A program made the position numbers and the translations under genes. The notes below the pieces were generated by a model, which was given only the letters and a program-made list of their open reading frames with translations, was not told the DNA's origin and searched no databases. Positions 11,846 through 34,281 of a DNA stretch of 64,000 bases are shown here, in pieces. Origin of the DNA: Escherichia phage muut; sequence record NC_052657.1, one strand, 5' to 3'. Every line of letters starts with the position of its first letter. The first letter of the stretch is position 1.

Positions 11846-12397
11846 TCAGGAAATATCAGATTGTGTTTTTAGATAAACAGCAAGGTCTGTATGCCATTTT
11901 CCTAAAAGATTTTGTCCTTTCCAACAATCCTTGTTTTCAACATTACGATCCCACATCCCCATTTTGATACCATAAATAGAATCATAAGGGCTTGCCTCTA
12001 CGAACTCCTTATCTGCGTAAGCAATAAGTTTATTTTTGAGATCTTCATTTTGTGTGTATTTAAGATACAAACCACGTTCGACAATCTTCTCCCGTAAAGA
12101 AGTCCAGGTATCTTCATCATAATCCTTAACTAATCTACCTAGTCGCTTATAATATGCTTGTTCTTTTTCTCCTGTATATCTTAGATCTCCGGTTAAAATA
12201 GAAGATGCAATATTGTAATCATAAAACAAACATGCTTTTCTCCACATCATATATTGTTCCACACAAGTAAATTCAACATAACTTGTAATAGAATTATTAT
12301 ACTTGGGAGCTAAAGGTTCAATAAAAGATGATAGATACCAGTTGCTAAATTCATCTTTTGCCGAAAAGAAGAACACATACTTATCAGTAATCCGCAT
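11846..12397 (-). CDS. NADAR/YbiA-like (DUF1768) domain protein
   Basis: Motifs FFFSAKDEFSNWYLSSF, ASPYDSIYGIKMG and GQNLLGKWHTDL resemble the YbiA/NADAR family pattern (FF..SNF.., SP.D..WG.G, G.N.LG). Confidence 0.5.
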   Translation of the reverse strand: MRITDKYVFFFSAKDEFSNWYLSSFIEPLAPKYNNSITSYVEFTCVEQYMMWRKACLFYDYNIASSILTGDLRYTGEKEQAYYKRLGRLVKDYDEDTWTSLREKIVERGLYLKYTQNEDLKNKLIAYADKEFVEASPYDSIYGIKMGMWDRNVENKDCWKGQNLLGKWHTDLAVYLKTQSDIS

Positions 12398-13588
12398 TTA
12401 CACCTCCTTACTGTATACTAATTTGCCACCATATTGTGTAATAATTTTTTGAAGATTTTCCAAATCAGAAACACTTACTGTTTCTGTATAACCATCTTTC
12501 AACTCTCTTTTCGTTAAAATACCAGTTTTTAATTTTTTCTTTATAGCTCTTTCAGCAGCCTTACATTGTTTCACTGTGCTAAAATCATATAAACAAATAC
12601 GCTCCATAAAAAACAGATTACGGCTATTTTGAATGTTTAATCGCCTATCACTATCTTTAGCTATACCAAACTTAAGAGCAACTATAATATTATCATCCTT
12701 AACAATATTAATATATAACTGCTGCTGACTATGACCAGCACACATAGGACAACCTCGACAGCGGCTTAATAAATTATGAGCACTCCCTATCTGCTCACCA
12801 TGCACAAGACAAAGATATTTAAACTTACCTATAGAAGAGGGTTTGGTAATCCAATCTACCCAGACATACCCTTTCCCTTCTACTTCCTTTTTTACCCTAT
12901 AGGTGATCTGGTCTTCTGTATACTGATAGTTCCCACAACGACACGGAATGTACCCTCGTTTAAGGTTATTTCCTTCAGAGTAAAATTTACCATCACAAAC
13001 ACCTGCTTGAACATATTCATCATGAGAGCAAACAGGACATTCAACCATCCAGATACTATGCCTGCGTCCTTTACTCCGTGTTCCTGTGTTAGTGAAGATA
13101 GTGCCTTCCTTAAATTTCCCTGTAGAAAAGAAATCTGCAATATGTTGATCGTCGGGCATTGTTAGTGCCTTCCTTGTATTCTCCCCCCTACATTGTGGAC
13201 AACCTCGACCGCCTTTAAATTGATGAATTGCTGTACTTTGCCATCTATTCCCACAATGGCACAACAAATCAAGTTTTGTTTTATTCCCTTTCCATTCTCC
13301 AACGTACCCTAACACCTGATACCCCTTCTTCTGTGCTATCTCTTCCAAGATCGGCAATTCTGTTTCCCATGTTAACGGCTTCTTACCAGAACAGATAGGA
13401 CAACTGTTGCCGCGCTTGAAATTACTAATACTACAAGTCTTCCATTCATGTTCCTGCCTACAGCGTAGAATCATTTTCGTATCACAACCTATAAACGGTT
13501 CAACATATCCTAGGATCTCAATCCCTTTATTATTCGCAATAGGTTGACACTCTTCTTTATATTGTTCCCATGATTTTGGTGCTGCCAT
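12398..13588 (-). CDS. Zinc-ribbon repeat protein with C-terminal T5orf172 (GIY-YIG-like) domain
   Basis: Several CxxC...CxxC pairs (CPICSG, CPQCRG, CPVCSH, CRGCPMCAGH); C-terminal KFGIAKDSDRRLNIQ...DGYTETVSV matches the T5orf172 pattern (KIGxT..RR...). Confidence 0.6.
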   Translation of the reverse strand: MAAPKSWEQYKEECQPIANNKGIEILGYVEPFIGCDTKMILRCRQEHEWKTCSISNFKRGNSCPICSGKKPLTWETELPILEEIAQKKGYQVLGYVGEWKGNKTKLDLLCHCGNRWQSTAIHQFKGGRGCPQCRGENTRKALTMPDDQHIADFFSTGKFKEGTIFTNTGTRSKGRRHSIWMVECPVCSHDEYVQAGVCDGKFYSEGNNLKRGYIPCRCGNYQYTEDQITYRVKKEVEGKGYVWVDWITKPSSIGKFKYLCLVHGEQIGSAHNLLSRCRGCPMCAGHSQQQLYINIVKDDNIIVALKFGIAKDSDRRLNIQNSRNLFFMERICLYDFSTVKQCKAAERAIKKKLKTGILTKRELKDGYTETVSVSDLENLQKIITQYGGKLVYSKEV

Positions 13589-13662
13589 CTACTACTCCTC
13601 TTATTAAATCTGGCATTAATGCAAGAAAACCCGCCGAAGCGGGTTTTTATTTGCTGGCTTAC

Positions 13663-14790
13663 TTAAAACACACTTGCCAAAGTTGCACCATTGGTGATAG
13701 TTGGTTCCAGAACAATACGGAAAGAATCTTCTGGATCATCACTAAACACAACGATTTTACCGCCTGTAATAAGATCTGCTTTCATTTTTGTCGCATTCAA
13801 TGGAATTCGAGCATCGCCTTCATCATCAAAAACCACGTAAGAGCTATTAGCAAGGGCTTCTTTAGAATCTGCATCACTTGGAGATGACAAGTACACGTCC
13901 AGTGTGCACGAACCACCTAAAAAGATTGCAGGTGTGAAGTTATGCCAACTAGATACCCAGCTAACTTTCTGAAGTTTCCCATTAATAACAACACTGCTGA
14001 TATCCCATTTATTACCACCACCTAAAGAAACACCCATCATAGAGATGCATTCTTTAAAGGATAAATCAGGGTAGAAATTAAGTTCTTCTACTATACCTTG
14101 GATCACATCAAAGGACAACTCTAAACTTACATCCCAAAGTCTTTGGAAATTATCAAAGTGTGCTTTGTTATCCAGGTTTTTATCTAAATAGTCCATCATA
14201 GTTTCTAGTGAGATTTTATCATAATTAAAATTATAAAACACACGACTAGGACGATTTAAAAAGAATTCAGAGATAAAGCCACTGTTTTTAGTCAGAATAA
14301 ACAGTTTATTACCACTGCCAGTACCATCTAACAAAGTGAGAAGTGCTTCTTGATCTTGTTTCTTCTCATATACTTTATCAAATTCATCAAAAATAATCAC
14401 TGCTTTGTCTGTGATCTTGCTAATAAGTTCAATGAAATTAGCATCACTGTAGGCTTGAGTAACCATAATAGTTGGAATACCTTCTTCTACAAGGTCACGA
14501 CTAATGAGTTTGGCTAACATAGTTTTACCACTGCCCTTAGTGCCTGTCAGGAGCAAACCTGTATTTTTACCTTGTGCACTCCGGCGATGGAATGTACGAA
14601 TAACGTGATTTGCTCGTTTTTCTGTTTCACCATACAGAACATCCGGTACACCTGTTAGATTACCACGGCTTAAAAAGTAATTGCCAAGGGGATCACGACT
14701 AACAGTATAGAATCCAGGTGGAAGATAGTTAGATTCCACGCCCATATCTTTATTTACACTTACAATATCACCATAAATCGTGTATTTCAT
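13663..14790 (-). CDS. AAA+ ATPase, paralog A
   Basis: Walker A GTKGSGKT, Walker B IIFDEFDK, sensor LTKN, NRPSR; about 45% identical in the ATPase core to 30498..31658. Confidence 0.65.
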   Translation of the reverse strand: MKYTIYGDIVSVNKDMGVESNYLPPGFYTVSRDPLGNYFLSRGNLTGVPDVLYGETEKRANHVIRTFHRRSAQGKNTGLLLTGTKGSGKTMLAKLISRDLVEEGIPTIMVTQAYSDANFIELISKITDKAVIIFDEFDKVYEKKQDQEALLTLLDGTGSGNKLFILTKNSGFISEFFLNRPSRVFYNFNYDKISLETMMDYLDKNLDNKAHFDNFQRLWDVSLELSFDVIQGIVEELNFYPDLSFKECISMMGVSLGGGNKWDISSVVINGKLQKVSWVSSWHNFTPAIFLGGSCTLDVYLSSPSDADSKEALANSSYVVFDDEGDARIPLNATKMKADLITGGKIVVFSDDPEDSFRIVLEPTITNGATLASVF

Positions 14791-14801
14791 TTTAACCCCT
14801 T

Positions 14802-15239
14802 TTATTTTTGTTGAGATGAACGAATTAAATCAGCAGCAAATTCAATCAGATACACTTTTGGTGCAATAATGATTTTTAGCCAATCAAAATTCGAAAAGAA
14901 AATAACAAATCCTAAAAAGAAAAAGAAAGCACAGACAACAAGACCAACAATAGGTAAAGCAGATACTTCACCATAGCGATCTCGTGACCACAGGCATTCT
15001 TTATCTTTAATTGCTTTTACGAGGTTCCGTACAGCAATAAAAGTAATAAACATAAAGCAAATACTAAAAAGTTGCCATAAACCTGCGGATACTGCTTTCC
15101 ACACTAATAATTGATGAATTACTTCTGGAATTTGTTGTTTTCCAAACTCTACAACATCACTCATTGTTTGAATAGTGACGTTAACCATGTTCAGAAGTAC
15201 ATCAGTTGCTTTATCTGCGATTGCGTTTGTTTTACTCAT
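14802..15239 (-). CDS. Hypothetical membrane protein (about 2 TM segments)
   Basis: Hydrophobic stretches LWQLFSICFMFITFIAV and IVGLVVCAFFFFLGFVIFF. Confidence 0.5.
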   Translation of the reverse strand: MSKTNAIADKATDVLLNMVNVTIQTMSDVVEFGKQQIPEVIHQLLVWKAVSAGLWQLFSICFMFITFIAVRNLVKAIKDKECLWSRDRYGEVSALPIVGLVVCAFFFFLGFVIFFSNFDWLKIIIAPKVYLIEFAADLIRSSQQK

Positions 15240-15253
15240 TCTTTATTCCTCAC

Positions 15254-15427
15254 TTACCTTTTAAGGAAACCAATCATAATGAAGAACCACATCCAGGCAG
15301 GAGAGATAATAAAGCCAAAGAAACCGCAAATAACCGCTTTCTTAATCTCTTCCAGACAACCCACCAGGAAAAGAACGAGTGAGACTACAATCCAGATAGC
15401 CATAAATACTGTAACAAAGAAACTCAT
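15254..15427 (-). CDS. Possible small membrane protein (57 aa)
   Basis: Hand-translated MSFFVTVFMAIWIVVSLVLFLVGCLEE...; ribosome-binding site GGGAGAAAGG. Below the track cutoff. Confidence 0.35.
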   Translation of the reverse strand: MSFFVTVFMAIWIVVSLVLFLVGCLEEIKKAVICGFFGFIISPAWMWFFIMIGFLKR

Positions 15428-15447
15428 ACCTTTCTCCCATCTGTATT

Positions 15448-15699
15448 TTAAAATTCAACCACTACTTTATCGAGATGCTCTGCTTCAACTTGATCTAAGG
15501 TTAACACCTCAACTAAACCTTTGTCAATACCTAATTTAATAACATCAACATATTGTCCAAACAGATCCTGAATAGATATCTTGTGTTCGACAACAACCAC
15601 CACTTCATTTCCTTTTGTGAATTCTCTCCATACACGTCCACATTTGAAAATAAAGTCTGCTTCGTCTTCTGTTATCATTTTAGGTTTGATACTTAACAT
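15448..15699 (-). CDS. Hypothetical protein (83 aa)
   Basis: ORF; stop overlaps the start of the downstream gene. Confidence 0.45.
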   Translation of the reverse strand: MLSIKPKMITEDEADFIFKCGRVWREFTKGNEVVVVVEHKISIQDLFGQYVDVIKLGIDKGLVEVLTLDQVEAEHLDKVVVEF

Positions 15700-16250
15700 T
15701 ATAAAACTCCGTACTCCGGCTCAAAATCATATTTTTCACAAATCATATCCCAGCGTTCGTTGCCGAAGCTGCGACCACAAATTGCATCGTAAGCGTAATG
15801 CTCTGCTAACCATTTTACAACAGTGTCTACATCGTTATCAAGTGGTAATCTGAATTCTTTGCCATATCGCATACGAAGAACAAATTCATCCCCTTCTTCA
15901 AACAAGTGCATATGGCTTTTTGCATAAGAAGCCAGGTTGAAAAAAGATACCTCTTCCCAGCATTCTTTTTCCACTGCAATCCCGTGATCAACAACTAAAG
16001 CACCGATAACGCGATACATAATAGGGCTAAACAGTGCGCTTGGGCTAGGCTGCTCTTCAACTATAGACCAACCTGTTCCCTGCCAAATTTCATTTTTGAA
16101 CCATTGTTGCATGTCATTCCCTTTTTCATCTACAATGGATCGGTTACGCATTTCAAACCATTCTCCTTCGCAAAAGTATTTATGTTTAACGCGCTTGCCT
16201 TTTAACATTGCTTCTTTGGCTTCTATCCAAGTCAGATCGGTGTTTTGCAT
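15699..16250 (-). CDS. Hypothetical protein (start trimmed to Met with GAGGAGA ribosome-binding site)
   Basis: N-terminus MQNTDLTWIEAKEAMLKGKRVKH resembles a common small phage domain (DUF2829-like F.EAl.al..GkkvrR); family assignment by recollection only. Confidence 0.5.
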   Translation of the reverse strand: MQNTDLTWIEAKEAMLKGKRVKHKYFCEGEWFEMRNRSIVDEKGNDMQQWFKNEIWQGTGWSIVEEQPSPSALFSPIMYRVIGALVVDHGIAVEKECWEEVSFFNLASYAKSHMHLFEEGDEFVLRMRYGKEFRLPLDNDVDTVVKWLAEHYAYDAICGRSFGNERWDMICEKYDFEPEYGVL

Positions 16251-16369
16251 TCGTTTATCTCCTCTCATTTGTGTATGCATTAAGATTAGCACAATAAAAC
16301 AGTATGTCAATACTTGATCTGAAATTAATTTCTGGTACTCTGTGTGTATCGTAACAAAAGAGGTTAGAT

Positions 16370-16660
16370 ATGAACATCACACTAGCAACTAAGAATATTA
16401 CAGAAACTTTTGATGGTTTTGGCATTATTATTGCTGTTCATGGGCATAACGAAAAATGGTTAGCCTCTTTTGAAGAGGACAAAGAACGCAATGTACGTTT
16501 GAATGCACCAATCAAAGTTTTACACCAGGTAGGTGAGAATAAGAAACAATGGAGATCATACAAAGAGTGGAACATTACGAACGAGTTAATACACAAACTT
16601 GACAAAGTGATAAACATGTTCGACAATGCACCAAGCAGTGCAAAACGTGTTTTACTATAA
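16370..16660 (+). CDS. Hypothetical protein (96 aa); first gene of the plus-strand block
   Basis: ORF with ribosome-binding site AAGAGG; divergent from the minus-strand cassette. Confidence 0.5.
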   Translation: MNITLATKNITETFDGFGIIIAVHGHNEKWLASFEEDKERNVRLNAPIKVLHQVGENKKQWRSYKEWNITNELIHKLDKVINMFDNAPSSAKRVLL

Positions 16661-16671
16661 AGGAGAGTGAT

Positions 16672-17025
16672 ATGAAAATTGTACACGATGAAATTCAATT
16701 TGAAGAGAGTGATCTTCTTGATCTAGATGTGACACTAAGTAAACTGATCTACAATGCACTTTCTGCATATCGTGCAAAAGTGATAGCCACAAACAATGTT
16801 AAAATTCCTAGTGGGTTACTTCGTCGGATGTACCCACACACTAAAGGTGACTATCTACCTTATATGGAAGAACGAGCAGCAGAACACTGGTTAGAAATTC
16901 TTGAAAAAATGGAGTCTTCTTTTAAGGACTCAACTCCACCAGAAGAAGTTAATGAAAAACAGCGGCAAGATCGTTTAGAAGGTCGTATTTTGTTTGCTAA
17001 GTATTTCCATAATCTGTGGATGTAA
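16672..17025 (+). CDS. Hypothetical protein (117 aa)
   Basis: ORF with ribosome-binding site AAGGAGAG. Confidence 0.55.
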   Translation: MKIVHDEIQFEESDLLDLDVTLSKLIYNALSAYRAKVIATNNVKIPSGLLRRMYPHTKGDYLPYMEERAAEHWLEILEKMESSFKDSTPPEEVNEKQRQDRLEGRILFAKYFHNLWM

Positions 17026-17038
17026 TAAGGAGAAAACT

Positions 17039-17206
17039 ATGAGCGAAACCAAGAAACCAATTCCGCGCACTTACCTACACGTTGACCCTGAAATCTTCAA
17101 GGTTTTATTTGCTGAAGCCAAGAAAAGGCAAATTATGGTCAGTGATTTGATGTTAGAAATCATTACTGAAGCAGCAGAGAACATCAAACAAAAAAAGGGT
17201 AAGTGA
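17039..17206 (+). CDS. Hypothetical small protein (55 aa)
   Basis: ATG preceded by TAAGGAGAAAA; the track ORF begins at an upstream TTG. Confidence 0.45.
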   Translation: MSETKKPIPRTYLHVDPEIFKVLFAEAKKRQIMVSDLMLEIITEAAENIKQKKGK

Positions 17207-17257
17207 TCCTCATTCACTTTAGTAGCGCATTAAGCGTGATTTATAAGGAGATTTTTA

Positions 17258-18256
17258 ATGATTAAACATACAAAACCTTTTTTAGGAATAGATTATGACT
17301 TACTAGCAATCACTTCCCTGGTGATTAACGGCAAAACAAAAGAAGTAAAACTACACCATAAGATCATTTATTCTTATTTGTTAAGTTTATCTGGCACATA
17401 CCAAAAGGTAACACCATCTTTGAAAGGTATTGGTGAGCGGTTAGGAGTAGGTACAGATCAGACGGTACGCCGTCATATCAAAGATCTTGTTTCTTTTGGA
17501 TGGTTGAAGATTGAGGAAAGGGCAGGTAGCACAAATGCTTATATTGTCCTTCCTTATGAACAAGAAGCCCAGACACAACAAGAAGCTACTGTTAAAGCTG
17601 TTCCTGATCAGCTTCCCCCTACAGAATGGAAAATGTTTAAAAAATGGTATTCACCATCTGGTAATGAATACACCGCTACACTGCCAGCCGTTGAAATCTA
17701 TAGCTATATAGCTGGATTCAATGAACAAGGGCAAGAATGTTACGCTACTCAAAAAACATTAGCTAATATTGGAATGGTTAGTGATCGTCAGGTACGCAAT
17801 ATTATAAATATGTTTGTTGATATGGGAGTTCTTTCTGTAGAGACACGCCACGGTCAAACATCACTCTATAAAGCATTACCCTTTACAGAGATGAATGTTA
17901 AAAAGCAAAAAAGAGTAAAAGAAATTCCGTACACCGAAAACCAACAATCAAATTGGTGTTTTTATATACAAAAATTGGTTTCTCCGTTTTATACCTGCTT
18001 GAAAGCAGGGATTACGGTAGATATTGATCGTAGAATCAAAGAGCAAAGTAAAAACAGCATGTTTAAGCATTATCTACTTGACAGTTTCAGTGGAGATTAT
18101 GCTACTATTTTCGCTTTGGAGAAAGAAGTTAAAAAATGTTTTAACCGCTCTTTATGCTTAAAAGAGTGGCTACCGGATGGATATACAGAAACATATAATC
18201 TAGAAGATTATGAAAATATAAAAAATTTTGTTAGTGAAAAATTGATTAAGGAGTAA
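17258..18256 (+). CDS. T5orf172 (GIY-YIG-like) domain protein with N-terminal winged-helix-like region
   Basis: C-terminal FYTCLKAGITVDIDRRIKEQ...DGYTETYNLEDYENI parallels the C-terminus of 12398..13588; N-terminus LGVGTDQTVRRHIKDLVSFGWL looks HTH-like. Confidence 0.6.
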   Translation: MIKHTKPFLGIDYDLLAITSLVINGKTKEVKLHHKIIYSYLLSLSGTYQKVTPSLKGIGERLGVGTDQTVRRHIKDLVSFGWLKIEERAGSTNAYIVLPYEQEAQTQQEATVKAVPDQLPPTEWKMFKKWYSPSGNEYTATLPAVEIYSYIAGFNEQGQECYATQKTLANIGMVSDRQVRNIINMFVDMGVLSVETRHGQTSLYKALPFTEMNVKKQKRVKEIPYTENQQSNWCFYIQKLVSPFYTCLKAGITVDIDRRIKEQSKNSMFKHYLLDSFSGDYATIFALEKEVKKCFNRSLCLKEWLPDGYTETYNLEDYENIKNFVSEKLIKE

Positions 18257-18258
18257 AC

Positions 18259-18408
18259 ATGGTTATCTACAAAAATAAGTTCACTGGCTGTCTGCGTAAA
18301 TTTATTGACAAAAAAGGGTATGTTTCTGTTGACAATGGTGTTACGTGGGTACAAAATGGCACTTCAGAACAACTGATCAAGGCTTTACCTTACTATGAGG
18401 AGGTTTAA
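18259..18408 (+). CDS. Possible small protein (49 aa)
   Basis: Hand-translated; ribosome-binding site TAAGGAG. Below the track cutoff. Confidence 0.3.
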   Translation: MVIYKNKFTGCLRKFIDKKGYVSVDNGVTWVQNGTSEQLIKALPYYEEV

Positions 18409-18732
18409 ATGTCCAACAATCTGTTTAGCGTGTCAATTGCACCGCGTGTTAATATTCGCTGTCAGTTTGTTAACTTACCAGGTGTGACACATATCACTTT
18501 AGAGTATGATCCTCGTTCACAAGAGAACCCAATTACAGGCAAGATTGATTCAGCCTACGGCGACTTTCTGATGGATCACCAAGCAATCTTATGTTGTGTG
18601 CAACGCTTACAAGCAGGGTCTTTATACATCTTCAAGAAATCTGTGTTCCAGGAGATTGCTCAAGCGGTTGAGAGTGGTATGGAAACACTTAACAACATGA
18701 TCGAAGCCGCTAACAAAAAGGAGGTTTTATGA
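18409..18732 (+). CDS. Hypothetical protein (107 aa)
   Basis: ORF with ribosome-binding site GAGGAGG. Confidence 0.55.
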   Translation: MSNNLFSVSIAPRVNIRCQFVNLPGVTHITLEYDPRSQENPITGKIDSAYGDFLMDHQAILCCVQRLQAGSLYIFKKSVFQEIAQAVESGMETLNNMIEAANKKEVL

Positions 18733-18986
18733 CACTTTATCATGTAACTACCGAAGGTGATTGCGAAGGTCGTACCACAAAAGATTTAGGGTATGTCGAA
18801 GCAGATTCGCCTGAACATGCAATTAAGTATCTGCACTCTATTGGTAAGTATGCTTATTATGAATATTATATCCATGAAATTGAGGAAAATCCTATACAAG
18901 TAGCAACACCTATGGTAGAGTTGGAACATCTTAAAGCAAAAGTTAAAACTGGCAGCACATCTGGATTTAAGGGGGTAGTACAATGA
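18729..18986 (+). CDS. Hypothetical protein (85 aa)
   Basis: ORF; ATGA overlap with the previous gene. Confidence 0.5.
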   Translation: MTLYHVTTEGDCEGRTTKDLGYVEADSPEHAIKYLHSIGKYAYYEYYIHEIEENPIQVATPMVELEHLKAKVKTGSTSGFKGVVQ

Positions 18987-20021: not shown

Positions 20022-20024
20022 TTT

Positions 20025-26706: not shown

Positions 26707-26718
26707 GAGGAGAATAGA

Positions 26719-27153
26719 ATGTCTATTGTGACACAAATGAAAGCAGATCGTATCTTAGCACGTACAACCGATAAGGGTGCTTTTGCTTTGTTAACTAATA
26801 TTATTGGTGAGTTTGACCTTGCTCGTACTCAAAAGGCAAATCTAAATAAATCAGAAGATGATATTATGATTAACATTGTTAAGATTGGTATTGCACACGC
26901 TAAAGAGGAACTAGACTCGCTTAAGAAAGTTAATGCCTCCATTAGCAAATGTGAGCGAGCTATGCGTGATATCACCATTCTGGAAAAATATTTGCCAGAA
27001 ATGCTATCTGAAGATGATCTTCGAGCTATTGCTGAAGAATTTGCCTTGACAGGCAAGAAAATGCCAGATATGATGAAACACCTTAAAGCAGAGTATCCGA
27101 ATCAATATGATGGAAAACTTGCTTCTACCATTGCAAAAGAAATTTTAAACTAA
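26719..27153 (+). CDS. Hypothetical protein (144 aa)
   Basis: ORF with ribosome-binding site GAGGAGAA. Confidence 0.5.
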   Translation: MSIVTQMKADRILARTTDKGAFALLTNIIGEFDLARTQKANLNKSEDDIMINIVKIGIAHAKEELDSLKKVNASISKCERAMRDITILEKYLPEMLSEDDLRAIAEEFALTGKKMPDMMKHLKAEYPNQYDGKLASTIAKEILN

Positions 27154-27170
27154 TTTAGAAGGAGAACATA

Positions 27171-28121
27171 ATGATTGCATTTTACGCTAATAAACTGGAA
27201 GTTAAAAAAGCAGCAGAAGAGATGGGTATCCTGCATATTCTTAACGAAGCAATTCACAAGAGTTTTGGTTACACAACTGAAGCAGAAATCAATGATCTGA
27301 TTCACAGTGTTAATGATTTGTTCTTCTACCCTAACTTTCTACAGCAGTTAGATGGTTGTGGATTTGAATATATGGAGCTTCATCCTGAATATACATTTAT
27401 GGAAGTAACACCTGAAGGTTTTCTGGAGATTATTCGTACTGAATATCTTGCTAAAGAGGATAAAGAAAAAGATATGGCTGAAAAAGTACAACTGACTGTG
27501 CATAATACGTGTTTCCTGGATACTGAGGCCACGGAAGAAAATATTAATTATCTGCTTTCCGTTTGTAATCCTCGTTGTCCACAACCACATTGGAAAAATG
27601 CAGATCATTATCTAATGTATTCAACTGAAGAAAACATTACTTTCTTCGATGAAAACAGTGGTATTAATGGTGCACATAAGAATTCTCCATATAGGAAAGA
27701 TCGGTTTGTAGTTGATGTAAAAACATTTACTAAACTGTTTGAGGAGTATTATTCAAAAAATGAAAGTAAGACTGAATCTTCACCAAAACCACGTTTTCGC
27801 CGACCGCGTAAACCTGTGCCTACTCGTTCTGTAAGTTATGTTCGTATCATTTACACTACGCAGCAGGTATATACTCTTAAGAACGTAAGCACTCTTACTG
27901 TACAAGAAGATGTAATTAATATTGTGCGTAATAATGTTATTACAGAGGGTATTGAGGAAAAGATTATGTCTGTTATCGATCCTAAACTTGTTATGGCAAT
28001 CATTATTAATGAACCAAAAGGTGTAACAACATTGTTCCGAAATATTCATGGTACTTGGGAAACTCAAGTTGACGGTTTGACTTCTGACGGTTGTACACGT
28101 ATTACCAAAAACCTTGACTAA
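27171..28121 (+). CDS. Hypothetical protein (316 aa)
   Basis: ORF with ribosome-binding site GAAGGAGAA. Confidence 0.55.
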   Translation: MIAFYANKLEVKKAAEEMGILHILNEAIHKSFGYTTEAEINDLIHSVNDLFFYPNFLQQLDGCGFEYMELHPEYTFMEVTPEGFLEIIRTEYLAKEDKEKDMAEKVQLTVHNTCFLDTEATEENINYLLSVCNPRCPQPHWKNADHYLMYSTEENITFFDENSGINGAHKNSPYRKDRFVVDVKTFTKLFEEYYSKNESKTESSPKPRFRRPRKPVPTRSVSYVRIIYTTQQVYTLKNVSTLTVQEDVINIVRNNVITEGIEEKIMSVIDPKLVMAIIINEPKGVTTLFRNIHGTWETQVDGLTSDGCTRITKNLD

Positions 28122-28168
28122 GATCAAGGACAATCTTACGAAAAAGATTTAAAATAAAGATCCACCCT

Positions 28169-28198
28169 AAAGCCAGCTTAATGCTGGCTTTTATTTTC
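28169..28198 (+). terminator. Rho-independent terminator (AAGCCAGC-ttaa-TGCTGGCTT + T-run)
   Basis: Perfect stem followed by TTTATTTT. Confidence 0.6.
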
Positions 28199-28210
28199 CA
28201 CGGAGGATTA

Positions 28211-30010
28211 ATGACCCAAAAACTATATGAGGATGTAATCGGATTCCTCGAACAAACATCCGAAGAATTTACTCGTGAAAATGCAAACAAACCTGCAATG
28301 ATTGTTAATACTCACCGAGACTTACTAGCAGGTATCCTAAGCAAGCACATGGCAATGACCCATATTTTACCGGAAGATCTAGCAGAATGGCATAAAAGTG
28401 GGTATGGTCACATTCACGATTTAGATTATTTACTCTCACCTCTAACTAATTGTTGCCTGGTAAATTACCAAGATATGCTTGAGAACGGTTTCCGTATTGG
28501 TAATGCACATATTGAAAAACCAAAATCTATTGGCGTAGCAACTACTGTCCTAACTCAAATTATTCAAGCAGTAGCTTCTAGCCAATATGGTGGACAAACT
28601 TGTGCACATATTGATACTGGGCTTAGTCAATACGTTAAAGCAAGTTTTAACAAAATATATGCCGATGTTGGCGATTATGATATTGCTATGCGTATGGTAG
28701 ATAAACAGGTTTACGATGCAATGCAAACTTTAATCTACCAGGTGAACACCCTAATGAGTGTAAATGGTCAGTCACCTTTTATAACAATTAGTTTAGGTTT
28801 GGATACCTCTGCTTTTGGTAGAATGATCACTAAAAACTACCTAATGGTGCACAAACAAGGATTAGGAAAAGATAGGGTAACTCCTGTGTTTCCTAAAGTT
28901 ATCTTCTTCTTGGAAGATGGTGTTAACATGAAAGCTGGCGATCCAAACTATGATTTGAAGCAACTGGCAATGGAGTGTTGTGCTGAACGCATTTATCCTG
29001 ATTTTATCTCTGTACCTTTAAACAAAGAAGTTACAGGATCTTCAGATGGTCGCGTCACAAGCATGGGTTGCCGTAGTTTCTTGTCATACTATGCAACAGA
29101 GCAAGGTGAAAAATATGATGGTCGTTTCAATTTAGGCGTAGTTTCTTTAAACTTACCTATCATTGCAGCAGAGTCCCGTGAAAAGGGCATCTTATTTACT
29201 GAACTGTTGGAACAACATATGGAGATGGCGTATAAGGCACATATGCTACGTGTTAACCGTATTAGACATACCAAAGCATCTCAAAACCCTACATTGTTTA
29301 TGGAAGGGGCTTTAGCTCGACTAGAAGCTAATGAAGAGATTGGTAAACTATTCGAAGGTGGTTATGCCTCTATTAGTATCGGTTATGTAGGTTTAGCAGA
29401 AGCTATGGAGATTTTATACCCAGGTAACACCAATCCAAAAGCAATGGGTAAAAACATCCTTCAATATATGAAGGATATCTGTGGCACATTTAAAGAACGT
29501 TCTGGTTTAGCTTTTAGTTTGTATGGAACACCAGCAGAATCCTTGTGCTATAAATTTGCCAAAGCATTAAATGATCGCTATCCTGGTTCTATTGATCGTG
29601 ACTACTTGACAAACTCTTTCCATCAACCTGTGTGGATGCACACTACCCCGTTCCAAAAGTGGGATTATGAGGAAGGTTTTGCACAAATCAGTAATGGTGG
29701 GAACATAGGTTATGTAGAAACACCAAACCTTAAAAATAACTTGCAAGCACTGGAAACTCTTGTAGATTATGCCTACAACAAAATTCCTTATTTTGGCGTG
29801 AACCAACCTGTAGATCAGTGTTTCAAATGTGGTTTTCATGGTGAATTTAAGGCAACAGCTAAAGGCTTCGAGTGTCCAAGTTGTGGCAATCATGAGGAAG
29901 AATCTATATCTGTAATCAGAAGAGTGTCAGGATATCTTTCTGCCCCTAACTCTCGCCCTTATAATAAAGGTAAAATGCAAGAGGTATTAGAAAGGGAGAA
30001 ACATTTTTGA
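28211..30010 (+). CDS. nrdD: Anaerobic ribonucleoside-triphosphate reductase (class III)
   Basis: C-terminal glycyl-radical motif RVSGYLS and zinc ribbon CFKCGF...CPSCG; size consistent; followed by nrdG. Confidence 0.8.
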   Translation: MTQKLYEDVIGFLEQTSEEFTRENANKPAMIVNTHRDLLAGILSKHMAMTHILPEDLAEWHKSGYGHIHDLDYLLSPLTNCCLVNYQDMLENGFRIGNAHIEKPKSIGVATTVLTQIIQAVASSQYGGQTCAHIDTGLSQYVKASFNKIYADVGDYDIAMRMVDKQVYDAMQTLIYQVNTLMSVNGQSPFITISLGLDTSAFGRMITKNYLMVHKQGLGKDRVTPVFPKVIFFLEDGVNMKAGDPNYDLKQLAMECCAERIYPDFISVPLNKEVTGSSDGRVTSMGCRSFLSYYATEQGEKYDGRFNLGVVSLNLPIIAAESREKGILFTELLEQHMEMAYKAHMLRVNRIRHTKASQNPTLFMEGALARLEANEEIGKLFEGGYASISIGYVGLAEAMEILYPGNTNPKAMGKNILQYMKDICGTFKERSGLAFSLYGTPAESLCYKFAKALNDRYPGSIDRDYLTNSFHQPVWMHTTPFQKWDYEEGFAQISNGGNIGYVETPNLKNNLQALETLVDYAYNKIPYFGVNQPVDQCFKCGFHGEFKATAKGFECPSCGNHEEESISVIRRVSGYLSAPNSRPYNKGKMQEVLEREKHF

Positions 30011-30477
30011 ATTACGCCGGATATGAACCTGTTGACATGCTCAACGGTGACGGTGTAAGATGCTCTTTGTGGGTGAGCGGTTGTAGCCACGGTTGCCGTG
30101 GCTGCTTTAACCAGAAAGCCTGGTCGTATAACTACGGACAAGAGTTCACTACTGAAACATTAGATCTTATCTTGAAAGATTTATCTCGACCTTTCATTAA
30201 AGGATTAACAGTTTTAGGTGGTGAACCTCTTGACAAAGAGAACATTGACACTGTAGCGTATGTTCTTGAGAAGGTAAGAGATTGTTTTGGAAACAAAAAA
30301 GATATTGTCTTATACACAGGATATCTTTTTGAAGAAATTCCAGAGAAAATTAAAAAACTGGTTGACATAGTGATAGATGGTAAGTATGATATGAATCAAC
30401 CAACAACGAAACGTTATAGAGGCTCAGATAATCAACGAATGTGGGTTAAGAAAGACAACATTTGGGAATCTGACTAA
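30007..30477 (+). CDS. nrdG: Anaerobic ribonucleotide reductase activating protein (radical SAM)
   Basis: N-terminus (M)NYAGYEPVDMLNGDGVRCSLWVSGCSHGCRGCFN closely parallels E. coli NrdG; TTG start overlaps the nrdD stop. Confidence 0.8.
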   Translation: MNYAGYEPVDMLNGDGVRCSLWVSGCSHGCRGCFNQKAWSYNYGQEFTTETLDLILKDLSRPFIKGLTVLGGEPLDKENIDTVAYVLEKVRDCFGNKKDIVLYTGYLFEEIPEKIKKLVDIVIDGKYDMNQPTTKRYRGSDNQRMWVKKDNIWESD

Positions 30478-30497
30478 ATTAAATAGAGGAGAAAACT

Positions 30498-31658
30498 ATG
30501 TTTACAGTATTCGGCAATCAAATCTTCCTGCGTCAGAAATCTGGTACAGATATTGAAGAAATTCCAGCAGGAACTTTTGGTGTAGGTGTTACTCAAAGTG
30601 GTGAGTTCTTCCTGTATCCTAAAAACGATATGGAAGTGCCTTCAGTAACATACGGTGATACTGATGATAAATCAGAACGTATTATCAAAACGTTCCTTAG
30701 CCGCAAAGGTAAAAACACAGGTGTTCTCCTTGAGGGTACGAAAGGTAGCGGTAAAACTTTGCAAGCTAAAATGCTGTCTTCTGCTCTTCGTGAAATGGGT
30801 ATTCCTACTATTTCTATCGGCAGTGCTTTTAATGGCGAAGGTTTTATCAATTTTATGTCTAAAATCACACAACCTGTGATGATTATGATCGATGAATTTG
30901 ATAAACTGTATGCTGAAAAAGATGCACAAGATGGTTTGCTTACCCTGTTGGATGGTGTTGGTGGCTACGACAAACTGTTTGTATTGACTAAAAATGATGG
31001 TTATGTATCAGAATTTTTGCGTAATCGTCCTAGCCGTATTTTCTACAGTTTTAGCTATAAGAAACTACCTAAAGCTACTATGGATGATTATCTGGCTAAA
31101 AATCTGGAGAACAAAGCCTTCTTACCAGATTTTGAAACGCTTTATAATCTCTCCGTGGATTTGAACTTTGATATTGTTCAGTCATTAGTAGAAGAACTTA
31201 ACCGTTACCCTAATGACAAATTCTCTGATGCACTTGCATTGATGGGTATCAGTATTACTGAACACCGCTATGCTGCAAAAGAGGTTAAACTTCTGAAAGT
31301 TAACGGTGTAGATCGTACAGGAGATGTTTCGTCAGATACCGATATTGACGGTATGACAGCACAAGGTTTGTTTAGCGGTAATCGTTATGTTGTAGCTGTA
31401 GACCATAAACTAGGTGAAGAGCATCTTCCTGAAATGGAAGGGATTGTTACCGTAGAAGATAAAGATGAAGAAGGTGACTACTACTGGGGTGTAGACCGTA
31501 TCTTGCTAACGTATGATGAAAAACACATTCGTACAATGGGTGGTGACGGTTATCACTTTATGTTCACCGATGATAAAGGTAACAACATTGAAGTTGTTAT
31601 TAAAAACAAAGAACGTAAAAACTACACAGAGTATGTGTTTGGTGGTCGTTCTTACTAA
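30498..31658 (+). CDS. AAA+ ATPase, paralog B
   Basis: GTKGSGKT, IMIDEFDK, LTKN, NRPSR; paralog of 13663..14790 with a divergent C-terminal domain. Confidence 0.65.
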   Translation: MFTVFGNQIFLRQKSGTDIEEIPAGTFGVGVTQSGEFFLYPKNDMEVPSVTYGDTDDKSERIIKTFLSRKGKNTGVLLEGTKGSGKTLQAKMLSSALREMGIPTISIGSAFNGEGFINFMSKITQPVMIMIDEFDKLYAEKDAQDGLLTLLDGVGGYDKLFVLTKNDGYVSEFLRNRPSRIFYSFSYKKLPKATMDDYLAKNLENKAFLPDFETLYNLSVDLNFDIVQSLVEELNRYPNDKFSDALALMGISITEHRYAAKEVKLLKVNGVDRTGDVSSDTDIDGMTAQGLFSGNRYVVAVDHKLGEEHLPEMEGIVTVEDKDEEGDYYWGVDRILLTYDEKHIRTMGGDGYHFMFTDDKGNNIEVVIKNKERKNYTEYVFGGRSY

Positions 31659-31663
31659 GTGAT

Positions 31664-31690
31664 AAAAGGAGGCGAAAGCCTCCTTTATTT
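31664..31690 (+). terminator. Rho-independent terminator (AAAGGAGGC-gaaa-GCCTCCTTT)
   Basis: Perfect stem followed by ATTT. Confidence 0.5.
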
Positions 31691-31692
31691 AT

Positions 31693-31896
31693 ATGGAGGG
31701 TATTATGGATCATTATTTTGTTTTTAAAGATAAAGTTGATACCGCAGGTGGTCACGTTGCTAAAAATGATCGTGACATTAAAGAAGTATTAGGAGATCTG
31801 ATTAACATTTTAGAACAAAAAGAGTTGCTTTTAGATAAGGATATTGCTAGACTTCTGGGTGTGGGGATAAGTGACATACAAAGATTACCATTCTAA
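31693..31896 (+). CDS. Hypothetical small protein (67 aa)
   Basis: ORF. Confidence 0.4.
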   Translation: MEGIMDHYFVFKDKVDTAGGHVAKNDRDIKEVLGDLINILEQKELLLDKDIARLLGVGISDIQRLPF

Positions 31897-31907
31897 AGGG
31901 GAAGAAA

Positions 31908-32063
31908 ATGCTTACAGATGATGAATATAAAGCTATCCAGGAAAAACTAACGGAGCTTGAAATTCTTGCTGTCAATATTAAAGATCAATCACATGCTGGA
32001 AAGTTACTACAGCAAGAGATCAATAAAATTAAGCAGATGATATTCTTTTGGACGGAGGATTAA
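31908..32063 (+). CDS. Possible small coiled-coil protein (51 aa)
   Basis: Hand-translated; ribosome-binding site GGGGAAGAAA. Below the track cutoff. Confidence 0.3.
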   Translation: MLTDDEYKAIQEKLTELEILAVNIKDQSHAGKLLQQEINKIKQMIFFWTED

Positions 32064-32065
32064 AA

Positions 32066-32722
32066 ATGACTGTTAAGCATATTTCTTTTGATGTATGGAA
32101 TACTCTTATTACTGCTAATCCTTTGTATGCAGAAGAACGCAACAAGGTTATTGCCGAGTATGCCTCTTGTTCTGAGGTAGAAGCAGCTACCGTATATAAA
32201 GAGGTAAAAACTCTCCTGGATTTAAAAGCAGAAAAAGGTATTTGTGGAACATCTAGGCATGCTTGGGAAACACTTTCTGCTCATTTGAACATTGATCTTG
32301 ATAAGGTGGATGGGTTAAAAAGAGACTGTTTAGCAATGTTTATAAAACATCCTCCAACATTAAACCCTGAACTTTGCAAGAAGTTGGAAGAGCTAAGTTC
32401 AACCTATTCTTTGAGTATTAAAAGCAATACTAATTTTGTACCTGGTAGTTTTTTAGCTGTATATTCTGGCTTGACAAAATTACCATTCGACTTTATGCAT
32501 TTTTCTGACGAGTTTTGCTTGTGTAAACCAGATCCTAGGTTTTTTAAACTCTCTTTTGATGAAATGGTAACGTTTGATCTCGCACCAGAGGAGATCTTAC
32601 ACGTTGGAGATAGTTTGATCTATGATGGAAAAGCTGTTGACATAGGGATGAAGTTCTGTCATATTATTAATCCAGAAGACTTGTTGGCTAAACTTAAAAA
32701 AGAGGAACTTATTAATGCGTAA
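32066..32722 (+). CDS. HAD-superfamily hydrolase/phosphatase-like protein
   Basis: N-terminal SFDVWNTLI (motif I-like) and C-terminal HVGDSLIYDGK (motif IV-like); start trimmed to MTVKH. Confidence 0.5.
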   Translation: MTVKHISFDVWNTLITANPLYAEERNKVIAEYASCSEVEAATVYKEVKTLLDLKAEKGICGTSRHAWETLSAHLNIDLDKVDGLKRDCLAMFIKHPPTLNPELCKKLEELSSTYSLSIKSNTNFVPGSFLAVYSGLTKLPFDFMHFSDEFCLCKPDPRFFKLSFDEMVTFDLAPEEILHVGDSLIYDGKAVDIGMKFCHIINPEDLLAKLKKEELINA

Positions 32723-33572
32723 TCAAATTCAACATTTTGCTAATACTTTTACTAACCTGAAGGAAGCAAAATTTAACATTGCAGATTATTCCAAGCTAAA
32801 GTTTGGTAGTAACCAGGCAGCAAAAAGAATGGGGCGCATTCTGGCTGAAAGTTTCTTTTCCAAGTATGAAGAACGACTGGTAAATGAAAGTTTTGTTGTT
32901 ATTCCATCTCCATATAACTATGTGAAAAATGCAGCTACAGTGTTATCTGAACATTTTGTAGATCACCTCAACTACCTAATCTCTATCAAAGGAGGTAAAG
33001 CAGTGGAGTGGGATATCGTTCATCGTAAAGTGAGCTATATCAATGATTATGGATTTCTTAGCAAAGAAGATCGTAAGGCTTTGATCGATGGTGACACTTT
33101 CTCTATCAATCGTGATTTCTGGGGTAATAAAACTCTGATTTTCATTGATGATGTTAATATTACAGGAACGCACGAAGAAAAACTTATTGAAATTTTAGAC
33201 AAAGAAGGTGTTGAAAACGATACGTTTTTCCTGTACTTTGCAAAGTATGAAGGTACAGAAGCCAATACCGAAGCTGCACTTAACTTCAACTATATCAATA
33301 ACCTGGCAGCTTTTATTAAAATGATTAAACAAGAAACTGATGCTAAATGTTTGGTTCGTCCTATTAAGTATCTAATGAGTCAAAGCGAAGTTGATTTTAA
33401 AATTGCACTTTCACAGCTTCCTTTGTATTATGTAGAACAACTGTTCTTTGGTTGCCTTGCAGAAGGCTACAATAACATTGAAAAATATAAAGAGAACTTT
33501 GATTTCCTACGTCAATTTTTTGAAAGCAACATTATCAACAAATCTAATGTTAAAGGGGATTATTATGTCTAA
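32715..33572 (+). CDS. Phosphoribosyltransferase (type I PRTase)-like protein
   Basis: PRPP-binding-like motif LIFIDDVNITGTH (compare VLIVDD.ITTGTT). Confidence 0.55.
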   Translation: MRNQIQHFANTFTNLKEAKFNIADYSKLKFGSNQAAKRMGRILAESFFSKYEERLVNESFVVIPSPYNYVKNAATVLSEHFVDHLNYLISIKGGKAVEWDIVHRKVSYINDYGFLSKEDRKALIDGDTFSINRDFWGNKTLIFIDDVNITGTHEEKLIEILDKEGVENDTFFLYFAKYEGTEANTEAALNFNYINNLAAFIKMIKQETDAKCLVRPIKYLMSQSEVDFKIALSQLPLYYVEQLFFGCLAEGYNNIEKYKENFDFLRQFFESNIINKSNVKGDYYV

Positions 33573-34281
33573 TAAAGTAATGACTTTCGGAGATCCTATC
33601 ACCAATATTACAGAAAAAGATTTTGGGCGTGTAGCAACAGATAAAGATGGTGTCTTAAGAATTCGTGTACAAGGTATTACAGCACAGGATGAATATGCTG
33701 TGTATGTTTCAGGTCTTAACTATATTGATGATCGCATTACACAAAACTTTGCACTGATCGGTGGTGTAGAGAAAATGTATTGGGAAGATGAAATTGTAAC
33801 AAGTTATCCGGCAGGTATCATTGAGGTATACGGTGATCTTTTAGCAGCAGCCGAGAGAGGCGATATAGACGCTATAGCACACTGCTGTAACTGTTTTTGC
33901 ACTATGGGTAGTGGTATTGCACCAAAAATTAAAAGCAAGTGGCCTGGTGCGTTTAAAGCAGATTGTGCCACTAAACGTGGTGATTATAAAAAATTAGGTA
34001 CGTTTACCAAATATATAGAAAACAATTTGACAATTTATAATTTATATGGACAATATGGTTATAGTCGTCGTGAGGAAGGTAAGCGTGACCTGAATTATGA
34101 AGCTATCTACAATGCGTTAGATAGTATGGGAGACGATGTTGTATCTTCAGGCGGTAAAATTGTAGGTTTACCAATGCTTGGTTGTGGTTTGGCTGGAGGT
34201 TCTTGGAGTATTGTAAAACTTATGATCGAAGAAACTCTAGTAAACAAAGGTTTAAATGTAATTGTTTACAAACTGAAATAA
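33565..34281 (+). CDS. Macro-domain (ADP-ribose binding/hydrolase, OARD1/TARG1-like) protein
   Basis: AIAHCCNCFCTMGSGIAPKIKSKWPG resembles the OARD1-type macro motif (LAHCISEDCRMGAGIA); start trimmed to MSNKV. Confidence 0.55.
   Translation: MSNKVMTFGDPITNITEKDFGRVATDKDGVLRIRVQGITAQDEYAVYVSGLNYIDDRITQNFALIGGVEKMYWEDEIVTSYPAGIIEVYGDLLAAAERGDIDAIAHCCNCFCTMGSGIAPKIKSKWPGAFKADCATKRGDYKKLGTFTKYIENNLTIYNLYGQYGYSRREEGKRDLNYEAIYNALDSMGDDVVSSGGKIVGLPMLGCGLAGGSWSIVKLMIEETLVNKGLNVIVYKLK

What the first reader, a model, noticed from the sequence alone, without database searches (positions are those of the whole stretch)
11846..34281. Two ADP-ribose-processing domains (NADAR/YbiA-like and macro) suggest a counter-defence function
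11846..12397 has YbiA/NADAR-like motifs and 33565..34281 has an OARD1/TARG1-type macro motif. Established knowledge: NADAR and macro domains remove or process ADP-ribose adducts, including ADP-ribosylated DNA bases made by DarT-type toxins and NAD-derived signalling or ADP-ribosylation products of anti-phage systems. Inference: the phage may carry these to reverse host ADP-ribosylation-based immunity. The NADAR gene sits in a cassette with a GIY-YIG-like T5orf172 gene, hinting at mobility.
Basis: partly seen in the sequence, partly recalled or inferred. Interest (0 to 1): 0.7.

Follow-up and report, generated by a model that had tools for sequence, protein, structure and literature searches.

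The report
Two known-type phage ADP-ribose erasers
This phi92-like E. coli phage carries two unlinked enzymes that strip ADP-ribose from DNA; the NADAR one has already been shown in near-identical phages to defeat the bacterial DarTG1 defence, and the macro one belongs to a phage family recently tied to DarTG2 resistance, so the finding is correct but mostly known.

Summary
Both domain calls hold. ORF 11846..12397(-) is a NADAR protein (Pfam E 5e-36) with its ADP-ribose-binding and catalytic residues conserved. ORF 33565..34281(+) has a TARG1/ALC1-class macro domain at residues 82-238.

The window is a Justusliebigvirus (phi92-like) coliphage. Its NADAR is 98% identical to the Bas61 protein. 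The Bas60/61/62 NADAR was published as AdfN^Bas60: when expressed ectopically it neutralises DarT1 and restores plating of DarTG1-sensitive phages, but has no effect on DarTG2 (Nat Commun 2025). That half is already known.

The macro lacks the TARG1 Lys/Asp dyad. It keeps the His/Asn/Gln/Gly-x-Gly set of SCO6735, a thymidine-ADP-ribose DNA hydrolase. It shares phrog_335 with T4 Tk.4 (AdfM), reported in a 2025 preprint as required for DarTG2 resistance. Anti-DarTG2 activity is therefore a strong inference, but it is untested in this lineage.

The two genes are 21 kb apart, on opposite strands, and not one system. The macro lies inside a Ter-type block (HAD, PRTase_3, macro, TerC, TelA, vWA-TerF, TerD), but it accompanies PRTase_3 only in this phage lineage. 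The NADAR's neighbour is a CapR + weak T5orf172 homing-endonuclease-like gene that keeps the same position in phAPEC8, so I found no evidence of a recently mobile cassette.

The parts
11846..12397 (-). NADAR-family ADP-ribosyl glycohydrolase, orthologue of AdfN^Bas60 (anti-DarT factor NADAR); phi92 gp223
   Evidence: Pfam NADAR E 5.3e-36. It is 179/183 identical to bas61_0107 and 97.5% nt identical to the Bas60/PaulScherrer gene. E47, K54, R88, W98, R102, E134 and D139 align with 8BAU E43, K50, R79, W89, R93, E125 and D130; W133 is replaced by Y142.
12398..13588 (-). Putative homing endonuclease: three CapR zinc-finger DNA-binding repeats plus a C-terminal T5orf172 (GIY-YIG-related) domain, abutting the NADAR gene
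   Evidence: CapR x3 at E 2.5e-36; T5orf172 at E 0.003, below cutoff; phrog_681 at 2e-82. Repeat number varies: 325 aa in Bas61, 486 aa in phAPEC8. This architecture is described for phage homing endonucleases in PMC10448857.
33565..33819 (+). N-terminal ~85-residue extension of the macro protein, fold unknown
   Evidence: Low pLDDT of 37-56. It is 30% identical (E 8e-9) to the N-terminal part of a separate MazG-like ORF that lies between PRTase_3 and macro in Phapecoctavirus-like contig L003. This suggests a deletion fused the two genes.
33805..34281 (+). ALC1/TARG1-class macro domain of the SCO6735/BT1257 subclass; predicted thymidine-linked ADP-ribose DNA glycohydrolase (AdfM-like)
   Evidence: Sequence and fold matches. 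H106, N109, Q163, G165, G206 and G208 are conserved, and the long 'mobile loop' is present (one search compared with PMC9411070). phrog_335 at 2.6e-64, shared with T4 Tk.4. PADLOC DarG at 3.5e-13.
32048..33572 (+). HAD phosphatase and PRTase_3 (ComF-like) pair, immediately upstream of macro with overlapping stop and start codons; context only, not part of the ADP-ribose function
   Evidence: Pfam Hydrolase 4e-6 and PRTase_3 1e-41. The HAD>PRTase_3 pair is present in 37 of the 38 PRTase_3 loci surveyed in bacteria and phages. A macro follows only in this phage lineage.
34838..41407 (+). Rest of the Ter-type block (TerC 34838..35815, TelA 37594..38697, vWA-TerF 39944..40738, TerD 40811..41407); context
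   Evidence: Pfam TerC 1e-38; TelA 5e-34, vWA-TerF-like 1e-38 and TerD 5e-28.

Best explanation
The window encodes two independent 'orphan antitoxin-like' enzymes that repair phage DNA after it has been ADP-ribosylated by host DarT toxins.

The NADAR protein (AdfN type) hydrolyses the N-glycosidic link between ADP-ribose and guanine that DarT1 makes on single-stranded DNA. This restores replication in DarTG1 hosts and has been shown for the near-identical Bas60 protein.

The macro protein is a DarG-like macro domain without DarG's DarT-binding C-terminal domain. It uses the SCO6735-type active site, in which a Gln positioned by an Asn acts together with the Gly-x-Gly phosphate loop. I infer that it removes thymidine-linked ADP-ribose made by DarT2, as T4 Tk.4/AdfM is proposed to do (only its requirement for DarTG2 resistance has been shown) and as SCO6735 does in vitro.

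The two genes lie in divergently transcribed gene blocks and have different evolutionary neighbourhoods. Their co-occurrence mirrors T4 (AdfN plus AdfM): two substrate-specific erasers, one per DarT type.
For: NADAR:
- Domain and catalytic residues are present.
- It is 98% identical to the Bas61 protein, and the gene is 97.5% nt identical in Bas60.
- The published phenotype of AdfN^Bas60 is DarT1 neutralisation, rescue of RB69, T5 and Bas25 on DarTG1, and no effect on DarTG2.

Macro:
- Sequence and fold place it in the ALC1/TARG1/DarG class.
- SCO6735 is the best sequence hit among solved structures. It cleaves dT-ADPr but not dG-ADPr and rescues cells from DarT.
- The residues whose mutation inactivates SCO6735 (N27, Q85, G128) are conserved as N109, Q163 and G208. 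N109 and Q163 are invariant in 53 homologues and G208 is more than 90% conserved.
- It shares phrog_335 with T4 Tk.4 (31% identity, E 2e-17), whose knockout sensitises T4 to DarTG2.
- A second, more distant phage macro, PhiKZ AdfM, also counters DarTG2.
Against: - No experiment has tested the macro of any phi92-like phage.
- No knockout of either gene has been reported in the native phage. The AdfN^Bas60 data come from ectopic expression.
- The DNA-positioning lysines of SCO6735 (K34, K89) are Ser here (S116, S167), although R168 and R169 follow immediately.
- The macro carries an extra N-terminal domain of unknown role.
- It is co-transcribed with HAD and PRTase_3 inside a Ter block, which could point to a different, small-molecule substrate.
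- Relatives encode a sirtuin, which is another possible source of macro substrates.
- The T4 AdfM result is a preprint.
Confidence: 0.8

Rival explanations
1. The macro domain is a working part of the phage Ter-type pathway. Together with the HAD phosphatase and PRTase_3 (and the MazG-like enzyme in sister phages), it would process a phosphoribosyl or nucleoside-like metabolite or signal, rather than repairing DNA.
For: The genes are tightly packed: the HAD stop overlaps the PRTase_3 start, and the PRTase_3 stop overlaps the macro start. The order PRTase_3, (MazG-like), macro, TerC is kept in sister lineages where the macro is only 54-68% identical. Phage Ter systems with PRTase and HAD have been proposed to make a nucleotide-derived signal (PMC7824862).
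Against: Among the 38 PRTase_3 loci, HAD precedes PRTase_3 in 37. A SCO6735-type macro follows PRTase_3 only in the Stephanstirmvirinae-like enterophage lineage. It is absent from all 20 bacterial loci outside that lineage (Rhizobium, Ensifer and Sinorhizobium, Bacteroidales, a Peribacteria MAG, Pedococcus) and is not adjacent in 11 other phage loci. Homologues of this macro occur in 2984 phage records, including T4-like phages. A jumbo-phage-like contig has it beside NAMPT, Nudix and SIR2 with no Ter component detected in the 12.5 kb read. Collinear genomes keep gene order without any functional coupling.
Confidence: 0.08
2. The macro handles products of NAD-consuming enzymes other than DarT. 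Candidates are O-acetyl-ADP-ribose or protein ADP-ribosylation from the phage's own sirtuin, ADP-ribose-1''-phosphate (the old 'A1pp phosphatase' annotation), and soluble ADPr-derived immune signals.
For: TARG1/OARD1 and Poa1p are fold neighbours. Relatives encode a sirtuin. A homologue sits beside SIR2, NAMPT and Nudix in L006. [quoted passage not shown] SCO6735 also removes Glu/Asp-linked protein ADPr, though weakly.
Against: SCO6735 strongly prefers dT-ADPr DNA over protein substrates. The family member T4 Tk.4 has a specific DarTG2 phenotype. No KptA/Tpt1 or RNA ligase is annotated in the parts of the Bas61 genome that I read.
Confidence: 0.1
3. The NADAR acts mainly as a YbiA-type N-glycosidase on riboflavin-pathway intermediates, as the database annotation says, and DarT1 reversal is a side activity.
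For: It passes the NCBIfam TIGR02464 cutoff and has the YbiA-type Glu at the E125 position (E134). GenBank names include 'YbiA-like N-glycosidase' and 'GTP cyclohydrolase II'.
Against: AdfN^Bas60 neutralises DarT1 in cells and rescues three phages, whereas E. coli YbiA does not protect against DarT1 in vivo. The published tree places it with non-YbiA, non-DarT bacterial NADARs. YbiA is only a weak match (E 0.06). I noticed no riboflavin genes near it.
Confidence: 0.04

Closest known systems
AdfN^Bas60 (anti-DarT factor NADAR of BASEL phages Bas60-62; Johannesman et al., Nat Commun 2025)
   Same: Essentially the same protein: 98% amino-acid identity to the Bas61 copy, the same genus and the same genomic position.
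   Different: Four substitutions relative to Bas61. The adjacent endonuclease has one more CapR repeat here.
T4 Tk.4 = AdfM (anti-DarT factor macrodomain; HIDEN-SEQ preprint 2025)
   Same: The same PHROG (phrog_335). The His-x-x-Asn and catalytic Gln are shared, and both are stand-alone macro domains without a DarT-binding domain.
   Different: Only 31% identical. T4's loop after the Gln is shorter. The window protein has an extra 85-residue N-terminal domain and sits in a Ter-type block rather than near tk.
Streptomyces coelicolor SCO6735 and B. thetaiotaomicron BT1257 (ALC1-like macro subclass)
   Same: Best sequence matches among solved structures. The catalytic Gln replaces the TARG1/DarG Lys, Ala replaces TARG1 D125, and the long mobile loop is present.
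   Different: K34 and K89 of SCO6735 are Ser here. The context is phage rather than a bacterial DNA-damage regulon. An N-terminal extension is present.
DarG (DarTG2 antitoxin) and PhiKZ gp104 AdfM
   Same: The same macro class and the same predicted reaction.
   Different: It lacks DarG's C-terminal DarT-binding domain: it scores 48 bits against a cutoff of 250 and matches only positions 4-147 of the 338-position model. It lacks the catalytic Lys. It is about 25% identical to PhiKZ AdfM.
Human TARG1/OARD1
   Same: Best fold match (TM 0.90 on the target).
   Different: The catalytic dyad K84/D125 is replaced by Q163/A210.

Membership tests
NADAR superfamily (PF08719) | Profile match above the curated threshold | tested here: met
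   124.8 bits against a cutoff of 35.1.
NADAR superfamily (PF08719) | Conserved Glu and Lys seven residues apart (E. coli C7 E88/K95; P. nicotianae E43/K50), plus the ADPr-contacting Arg, Trp, Arg and Asp | tested here: met
   E47, K54, R88, W98, R102 and D139 align with 8BAU. W133 is replaced by Y142.
AdfN (phage anti-DarTG1 NADAR) | Neutralises DarT1 and restores plating on DarTG1 hosts | not testable with these tools
   Published for AdfN^Bas60. The window protein is 98% identical to the Bas61 copy.
YbiA subfamily (riboflavin-intermediate N-glycosidase) | Glu at the position of P. nicotianae E125, and the TIGR02464 profile | tested here: met
   E134 is present, and TIGR02464 scores 109.9 bits against a cutoff of 73.7. 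However, the published tree places AdfN^Bas60 outside the YbiA-like group, and YbiA itself matches at only E 0.06. Meeting the profile therefore does not settle the substrate.
Macro domain, ALC1/TARG1-like class | Macro fold closest to TARG1, DarG and SCO6735 | tested here: met
   Foldseek hits: TARG1 5.5e-13, BT1257 1.3e-11, DarG 2.3e-10, SCO6735 4.3e-10.
TARG1-type catalytic mechanism | Lys84/Asp125 dyad | tested here: not met
   The aligned residues are Q163 and A210.
SCO6735/BT1257 subclass | Gln at the catalytic Lys position, Asn27 and His24 equivalents, Gly126-x-Gly128, and a mobile loop about 5 residues longer than in TARG1 | tested here: met
   H106, N109, Q163, G165, G206 and G208 are present, and the loop aligns with SCO6735 with a single 1-residue gap (one search compared). 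The K34 and K89 equivalents are Ser.
DarG antitoxin (full length) | Macro domain plus a C-terminal DarT-binding domain; encoded next to darT | tested here: not met
   Only model positions 4-147 of 338 match, at 48 bits against a cutoff of 250. None of the neighbouring ORFs I scanned is a DarT, and none is annotated in relatives.
AdfM (phage anti-DarTG2 macro) | Required for, or sufficient for, phage growth on DarTG2 hosts; removes dT-ADPr | not testable with these tools
   It shares a PHROG with T4 Tk.4/AdfM. No data exist for phi92-like phages.
Ter-linked nucleoside-like metabolite module | The component co-occurs with PRTase_3/HAD across independent lineages | tested here: not met
   The macro is adjacent to PRTase_3 only in one phage lineage. 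It is absent from the 20 bacterial loci outside that lineage and is not adjacent in 11 other phage loci.
CapR + T5orf172 homing endonuclease | CapR zinc-finger repeats plus a T5orf172 nuclease domain | tested here: inconclusive
   CapR x3 is strong. T5orf172 scores 18.4 bits against a cutoff of 20. phrog_681 'endonuclease' matches at 2e-82. There is no presence/absence polymorphism among the 54 relatives.

The most novel reading that the evidence does not exclude
In Stephanstirmvirinae the macro domain has been recruited into the phage Ter-type operon. In phi92-like phages it has also been fused to the N-terminal domain of a former MazG-like neighbour. On this reading it acts on a phosphoribosyl or ADP-ribose-like small molecule made or consumed by the HAD/PRTase_3 pair, which would give the first enzymatic handle on the unknown 'nucleoside-like metabolite' of Ter systems.
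Probability: 0.07. Interest if true: 0.65.

Novelty: new member of a known kind. Interest (0 to 1): 0.25.

Why it matters
This is a second phage lineage, after T4, that appears to carry one eraser per DarT chemistry: a NADAR for guanine and a macro for thymine. It supports the view that DNA ADP-ribosylation exerts widespread selective pressure on large coliphages.

In practice, phi92-like phages have very broad host ranges and are candidates for therapy, so their counter-defence repertoire helps predict host range. The macro half is a cheap, well-posed experiment. The NADAR half adds nothing beyond published work.

Tried and rejected
- I tested whether the macro is a core partner of PRTase_3/HAD by collecting 38 PRTase_3 loci from bacterial genomes and viral contigs and scanning them with home-built profiles. 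The idea was rejected: the linkage is confined to one lineage.
- I tested whether the AAA ATPase upstream of the NADAR is a conserved partner. The same-sized neighbours in Salmonella phage SSE121 are unrelated, so this was rejected. The two ATPases within the window are paralogues, and I could not establish any meaning for that.
- I looked for tRNA genes and Rfam families in the ORF-poor stretch next to the NADAR and across the whole window. There were none.
- The promoter scan of 10400..17500 found no more promoter-like sites than shuffled sequence gives.
- A sequence search of solved structures with the endonuclease returned only noise.
- The Anantharaman et al. 2012 Ter paper could not be read. 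What I say about it rests on citing papers and my own recollection.
I reran it without that sequence.


Full report
**What the window is.** Megablast of both gene regions finds 97-99.6% identical Justusliebigvirus (phi92-like, Stephanstirmvirinae) E. coli myophages. These include arall, ESCO32, Paula and the BASEL phages PaulScherrer (Bas60), EmilieFrey (Bas61) and JohannJBalmer (Bas62). Maffei et al. 2021 identify Bas60-62 as the phi92-like group.

**The observation.** ORF 11846..12397(-) encodes a 183-residue protein that matches Pfam NADAR at E 5.3e-36. ORF 33565..34281(+) encodes a 238-residue protein whose residues 106-217 match Pfam Macro at E 1.1e-6, above the curated cutoff. Both also match large phage protein families, phrog_1017 and phrog_335. 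The coordinates are right, and an AAGGGGA ribosome-binding motif precedes the ATG at 33565. GenBank records of relatives already name these genes 'putative YbiA-like N-glycosidase' or 'NADAR family protein' and 'putative macrodomain protein'.

**NADAR.**
- The best solved relative is the Phytophthora nicotianae NADAR bound to ADP-ribose (8BAU, E 5e-12). E. coli YbiA is a weak match (E 0.06).
- Reading that alignment against the residues described by Schuller et al. 2023, the window protein keeps E47, K54, R88, W98, R102, E134 and D139. It has Y142 where 8BAU has W133.
- The protein is 179/183 identical to bas61_0107, and the gene is 97.5% identical in Bas60 and present in all 54 close relatives found.
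- Johannesman et al. (Nat Commun 2025) state that Bas60, Bas61 and Bas62 encode one NADAR, AdfN^Bas60. Expressed from a plasmid, it neutralises DarT1 toxicity and restores plating of RB69, T5 and Bas25 on DarTG1 hosts. It does nothing against DarTG2.
The published data are ectopic; I found no report of a knockout in the native phage.
- Automated family models would still call it a riboflavin-intermediate N-glycosidase (TIGR02464, 109.9 bits against a cutoff of 73.7). E. coli YbiA, however, does not protect against DarT1 in cells.

**Macro.**
- Sequence searches of solved structures give SCO6735 (5e-16), BT1257 (2e-15) and human TARG1 (4e-10) as the best hits, with DarG macrodomains further down.
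- An AlphaFold model built on 53 homologues is confident for residues 82-238 (pLDDT above 90) and poor for residues 1-81.
- Foldseek against the PDB ranks TARG1 first (TM 0.90 on the target), followed by BT1257, T. aquaticus DarG and SCO6735.
The TARG1 catalytic dyad is missing, though: K84 aligns with Q163 and D125 with A210.
- This is the SCO6735 pattern. Hlousek-Kasun et al. 2022 showed that SCO6735 lacks those residues yet removes thymidine-linked ADP-ribose from DarT-modified ssDNA faster than DarG or TARG1. It does not touch guanine-ADPr, and it rescues cells from DarT. Q85A inactivates it, and N27S and G128E nearly do.
- The window protein conserves the equivalents H106, N109, Q163, G165, G206 and G208 and has the long mobile loop of that subclass. 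N109 and Q163 are invariant across the 53-sequence alignment, and G208 is more than 90% conserved.
- The two DNA-positioning lysines of SCO6735 are serines here.
- The defence-system and NCBI profiles recognise only the macro part of DarG, so this is a DarG-like domain without the toxin-binding half.

**Link to phage counter-defence for the macro.** T4 Tk.4 falls in the same PHROG (E 1.3e-65) and is 31% identical to the window protein (E 2e-17). A 2025 preprint reports that tk.4 is the single T4 gene needed on DarTG2 hosts, that a clean deletion sensitises T4, and names it AdfM. A more distant macro, PhiKZ gp104, was independently named AdfM and shown to remove DarT2 marks; it is about 25% identical to the window protein. 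Homologues of the window macro occur in 2984 phage records. Anti-DarTG2 activity is therefore the best-supported function, but for this lineage it remains an inference.

**Context of the macro gene.** It is the third gene of a tightly packed run:
- HAD hydrolase, 32048..32722
- PRTase_3, 32715..33572
- macro, 33565..34281
- then TerC, TelA, a vWA-TerF-like protein and TerD

This is a phage copy of the Ter-type gene set. Iyer et al. 2021 noted such sets in jumbo phages and 'related smaller tailed phages' and suggested a role against superinfecting phages.

To ask whether the macro belongs to that system, I collected 38 loci encoding PRTase_3 relatives (21 from bacterial genomes, 17 from viral contigs) and scanned them with profiles. 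The HAD gene precedes PRTase_3 in 37 of them. A SCO6735-type macro follows PRTase_3 only in the Stephanstirmvirinae-like enterophage contigs. It is absent from the other 20 bacterial-genome loci (Rhizobium, Ensifer and Sinorhizobium, Bacteroidales, a Peribacteria MAG, Pedococcus) and is not adjacent in 11 other large phages. Conversely, a 48%-identical homologue in a 368-kb contig sits beside a second macro, NAMPT, Nudix and SIR2, with no Ter component detected in the 12.5 kb read. The macro thus looks like a lineage-specific insertion into the block rather than a core part of it.

**The N-terminal extension.** In a Phapecoctavirus-like contig, a separate 187-residue ORF lies between PRTase_3 and macro. 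Its C-terminal part is MazG-like (phrog_1247), and its N-terminal part is homologous to the first 85 residues of the window macro protein. The phi92-like protein therefore looks like the product of a deletion that removed the MazG domain and fused the remnant to the macro.

**The 'cassette' with the endonuclease.** The 396-residue neighbour has three CapR zinc-finger repeats and a sub-threshold T5orf172 match. This is the architecture Barth et al. 2023 describe for phage homing endonucleases with repeat-number variation. Repeat number does vary here: 325 residues in Bas61 and 486 in phAPEC8. A homologue at 37% identity nevertheless lies between the same ATPase gene and the NADAR (57% identity) in phAPEC8, and no close relative lacks the NADAR. 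The endonuclease may shape local recombination, but nothing shows that the NADAR travels with it.

**Are the two genes one system?** No. They are 21 kb apart and on opposite strands, on either side of a divergent junction near 16.3 kb. They have unrelated neighbours. The span quoted in the finding covers dozens of unrelated genes.

**Verdict.** The NADAR function is already published for a 98% identical protein. The macro is a new, untested member of a family whose anti-DarTG2 role has just been described. The only features I did not find described are the macro's placement inside the Ter-type block and its fusion to a MazG-neighbour remnant.

Noticed in passing
window 32048..41407 (+): A Ter-type gene block in a 146-kb coliphage: HAD, PRTase_3, macro, TerC, TelA, vWA-TerF-like and TerD, with several unannotated ORFs between them. 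The HAD>PRTase_3 pair recurs in Rhizobium, Ensifer and Sinorhizobium, Bacteroidales and many large phages.
   Followed up: partly
window 13663..14790 (-) and 30498..31658 (+): Two paralogous AAA ATPases, 47% identical over their first 254 residues, with unrelated C-terminal parts. Each lies transcriptionally upstream of one of the two ADP-ribose genes. Relatives annotate them as 'FtsH-like protease' or 'ATPase or Zn metalloprotease'. I could not establish any functional link.
   Followed up: partly
window 33565..33819 (+); L003 5451..6014: The N-terminal 85 residues of the macro protein are homologous to the N-terminus of a MazG-like ORF that is a separate gene in Phapecoctavirus-like phages. 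This implies a deletion and fusion in the phi92-like lineage.
   Followed up: partly
window 12398..13588 (-): The number of CapR repeats in the endonuclease differs between close relatives: 396 aa here, 390 aa in Paula, 325 aa in Bas61 and 486 aa in phAPEC8. The gene is much more diverged (82% aa identity to Bas61) than the adjacent NADAR (98%).
   Followed up: partly
window 11100..11845: A stretch of about 750 nt downstream of the NADAR has no ORF of 60 aa or more. Terminator-like hairpins lie just beyond it at 10964..11102. There is no tRNA gene or Rfam family anywhere in the window.
   Followed up: partly
L054 21323..22135 (EmilieFrey record 103822..104634; outside the window): Relatives encode a sirtuin-family protein. 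It could generate O-acetyl-ADP-ribose or ADP-ribosylated proteins as alternative macro substrates.
   Followed up: no
GenBank MG065639, MG065645, MG065656, MG065689 and others: Records labelled 'Campylobacter phage' (host C. jejuni) are about 97% identical to these E. coli phages across both regions. The host labels look doubtful.
   Followed up: no
window 11846..12397 (-): The NADAR matches the PADLOC candidate defence component PDC-M42C (E 3e-34). It also matches, weakly, the NCBIfam model 'NADAR family anti-phage protein' (DS32_2). NADARs therefore appear on both the defence and counter-defence sides.
   Followed up: no
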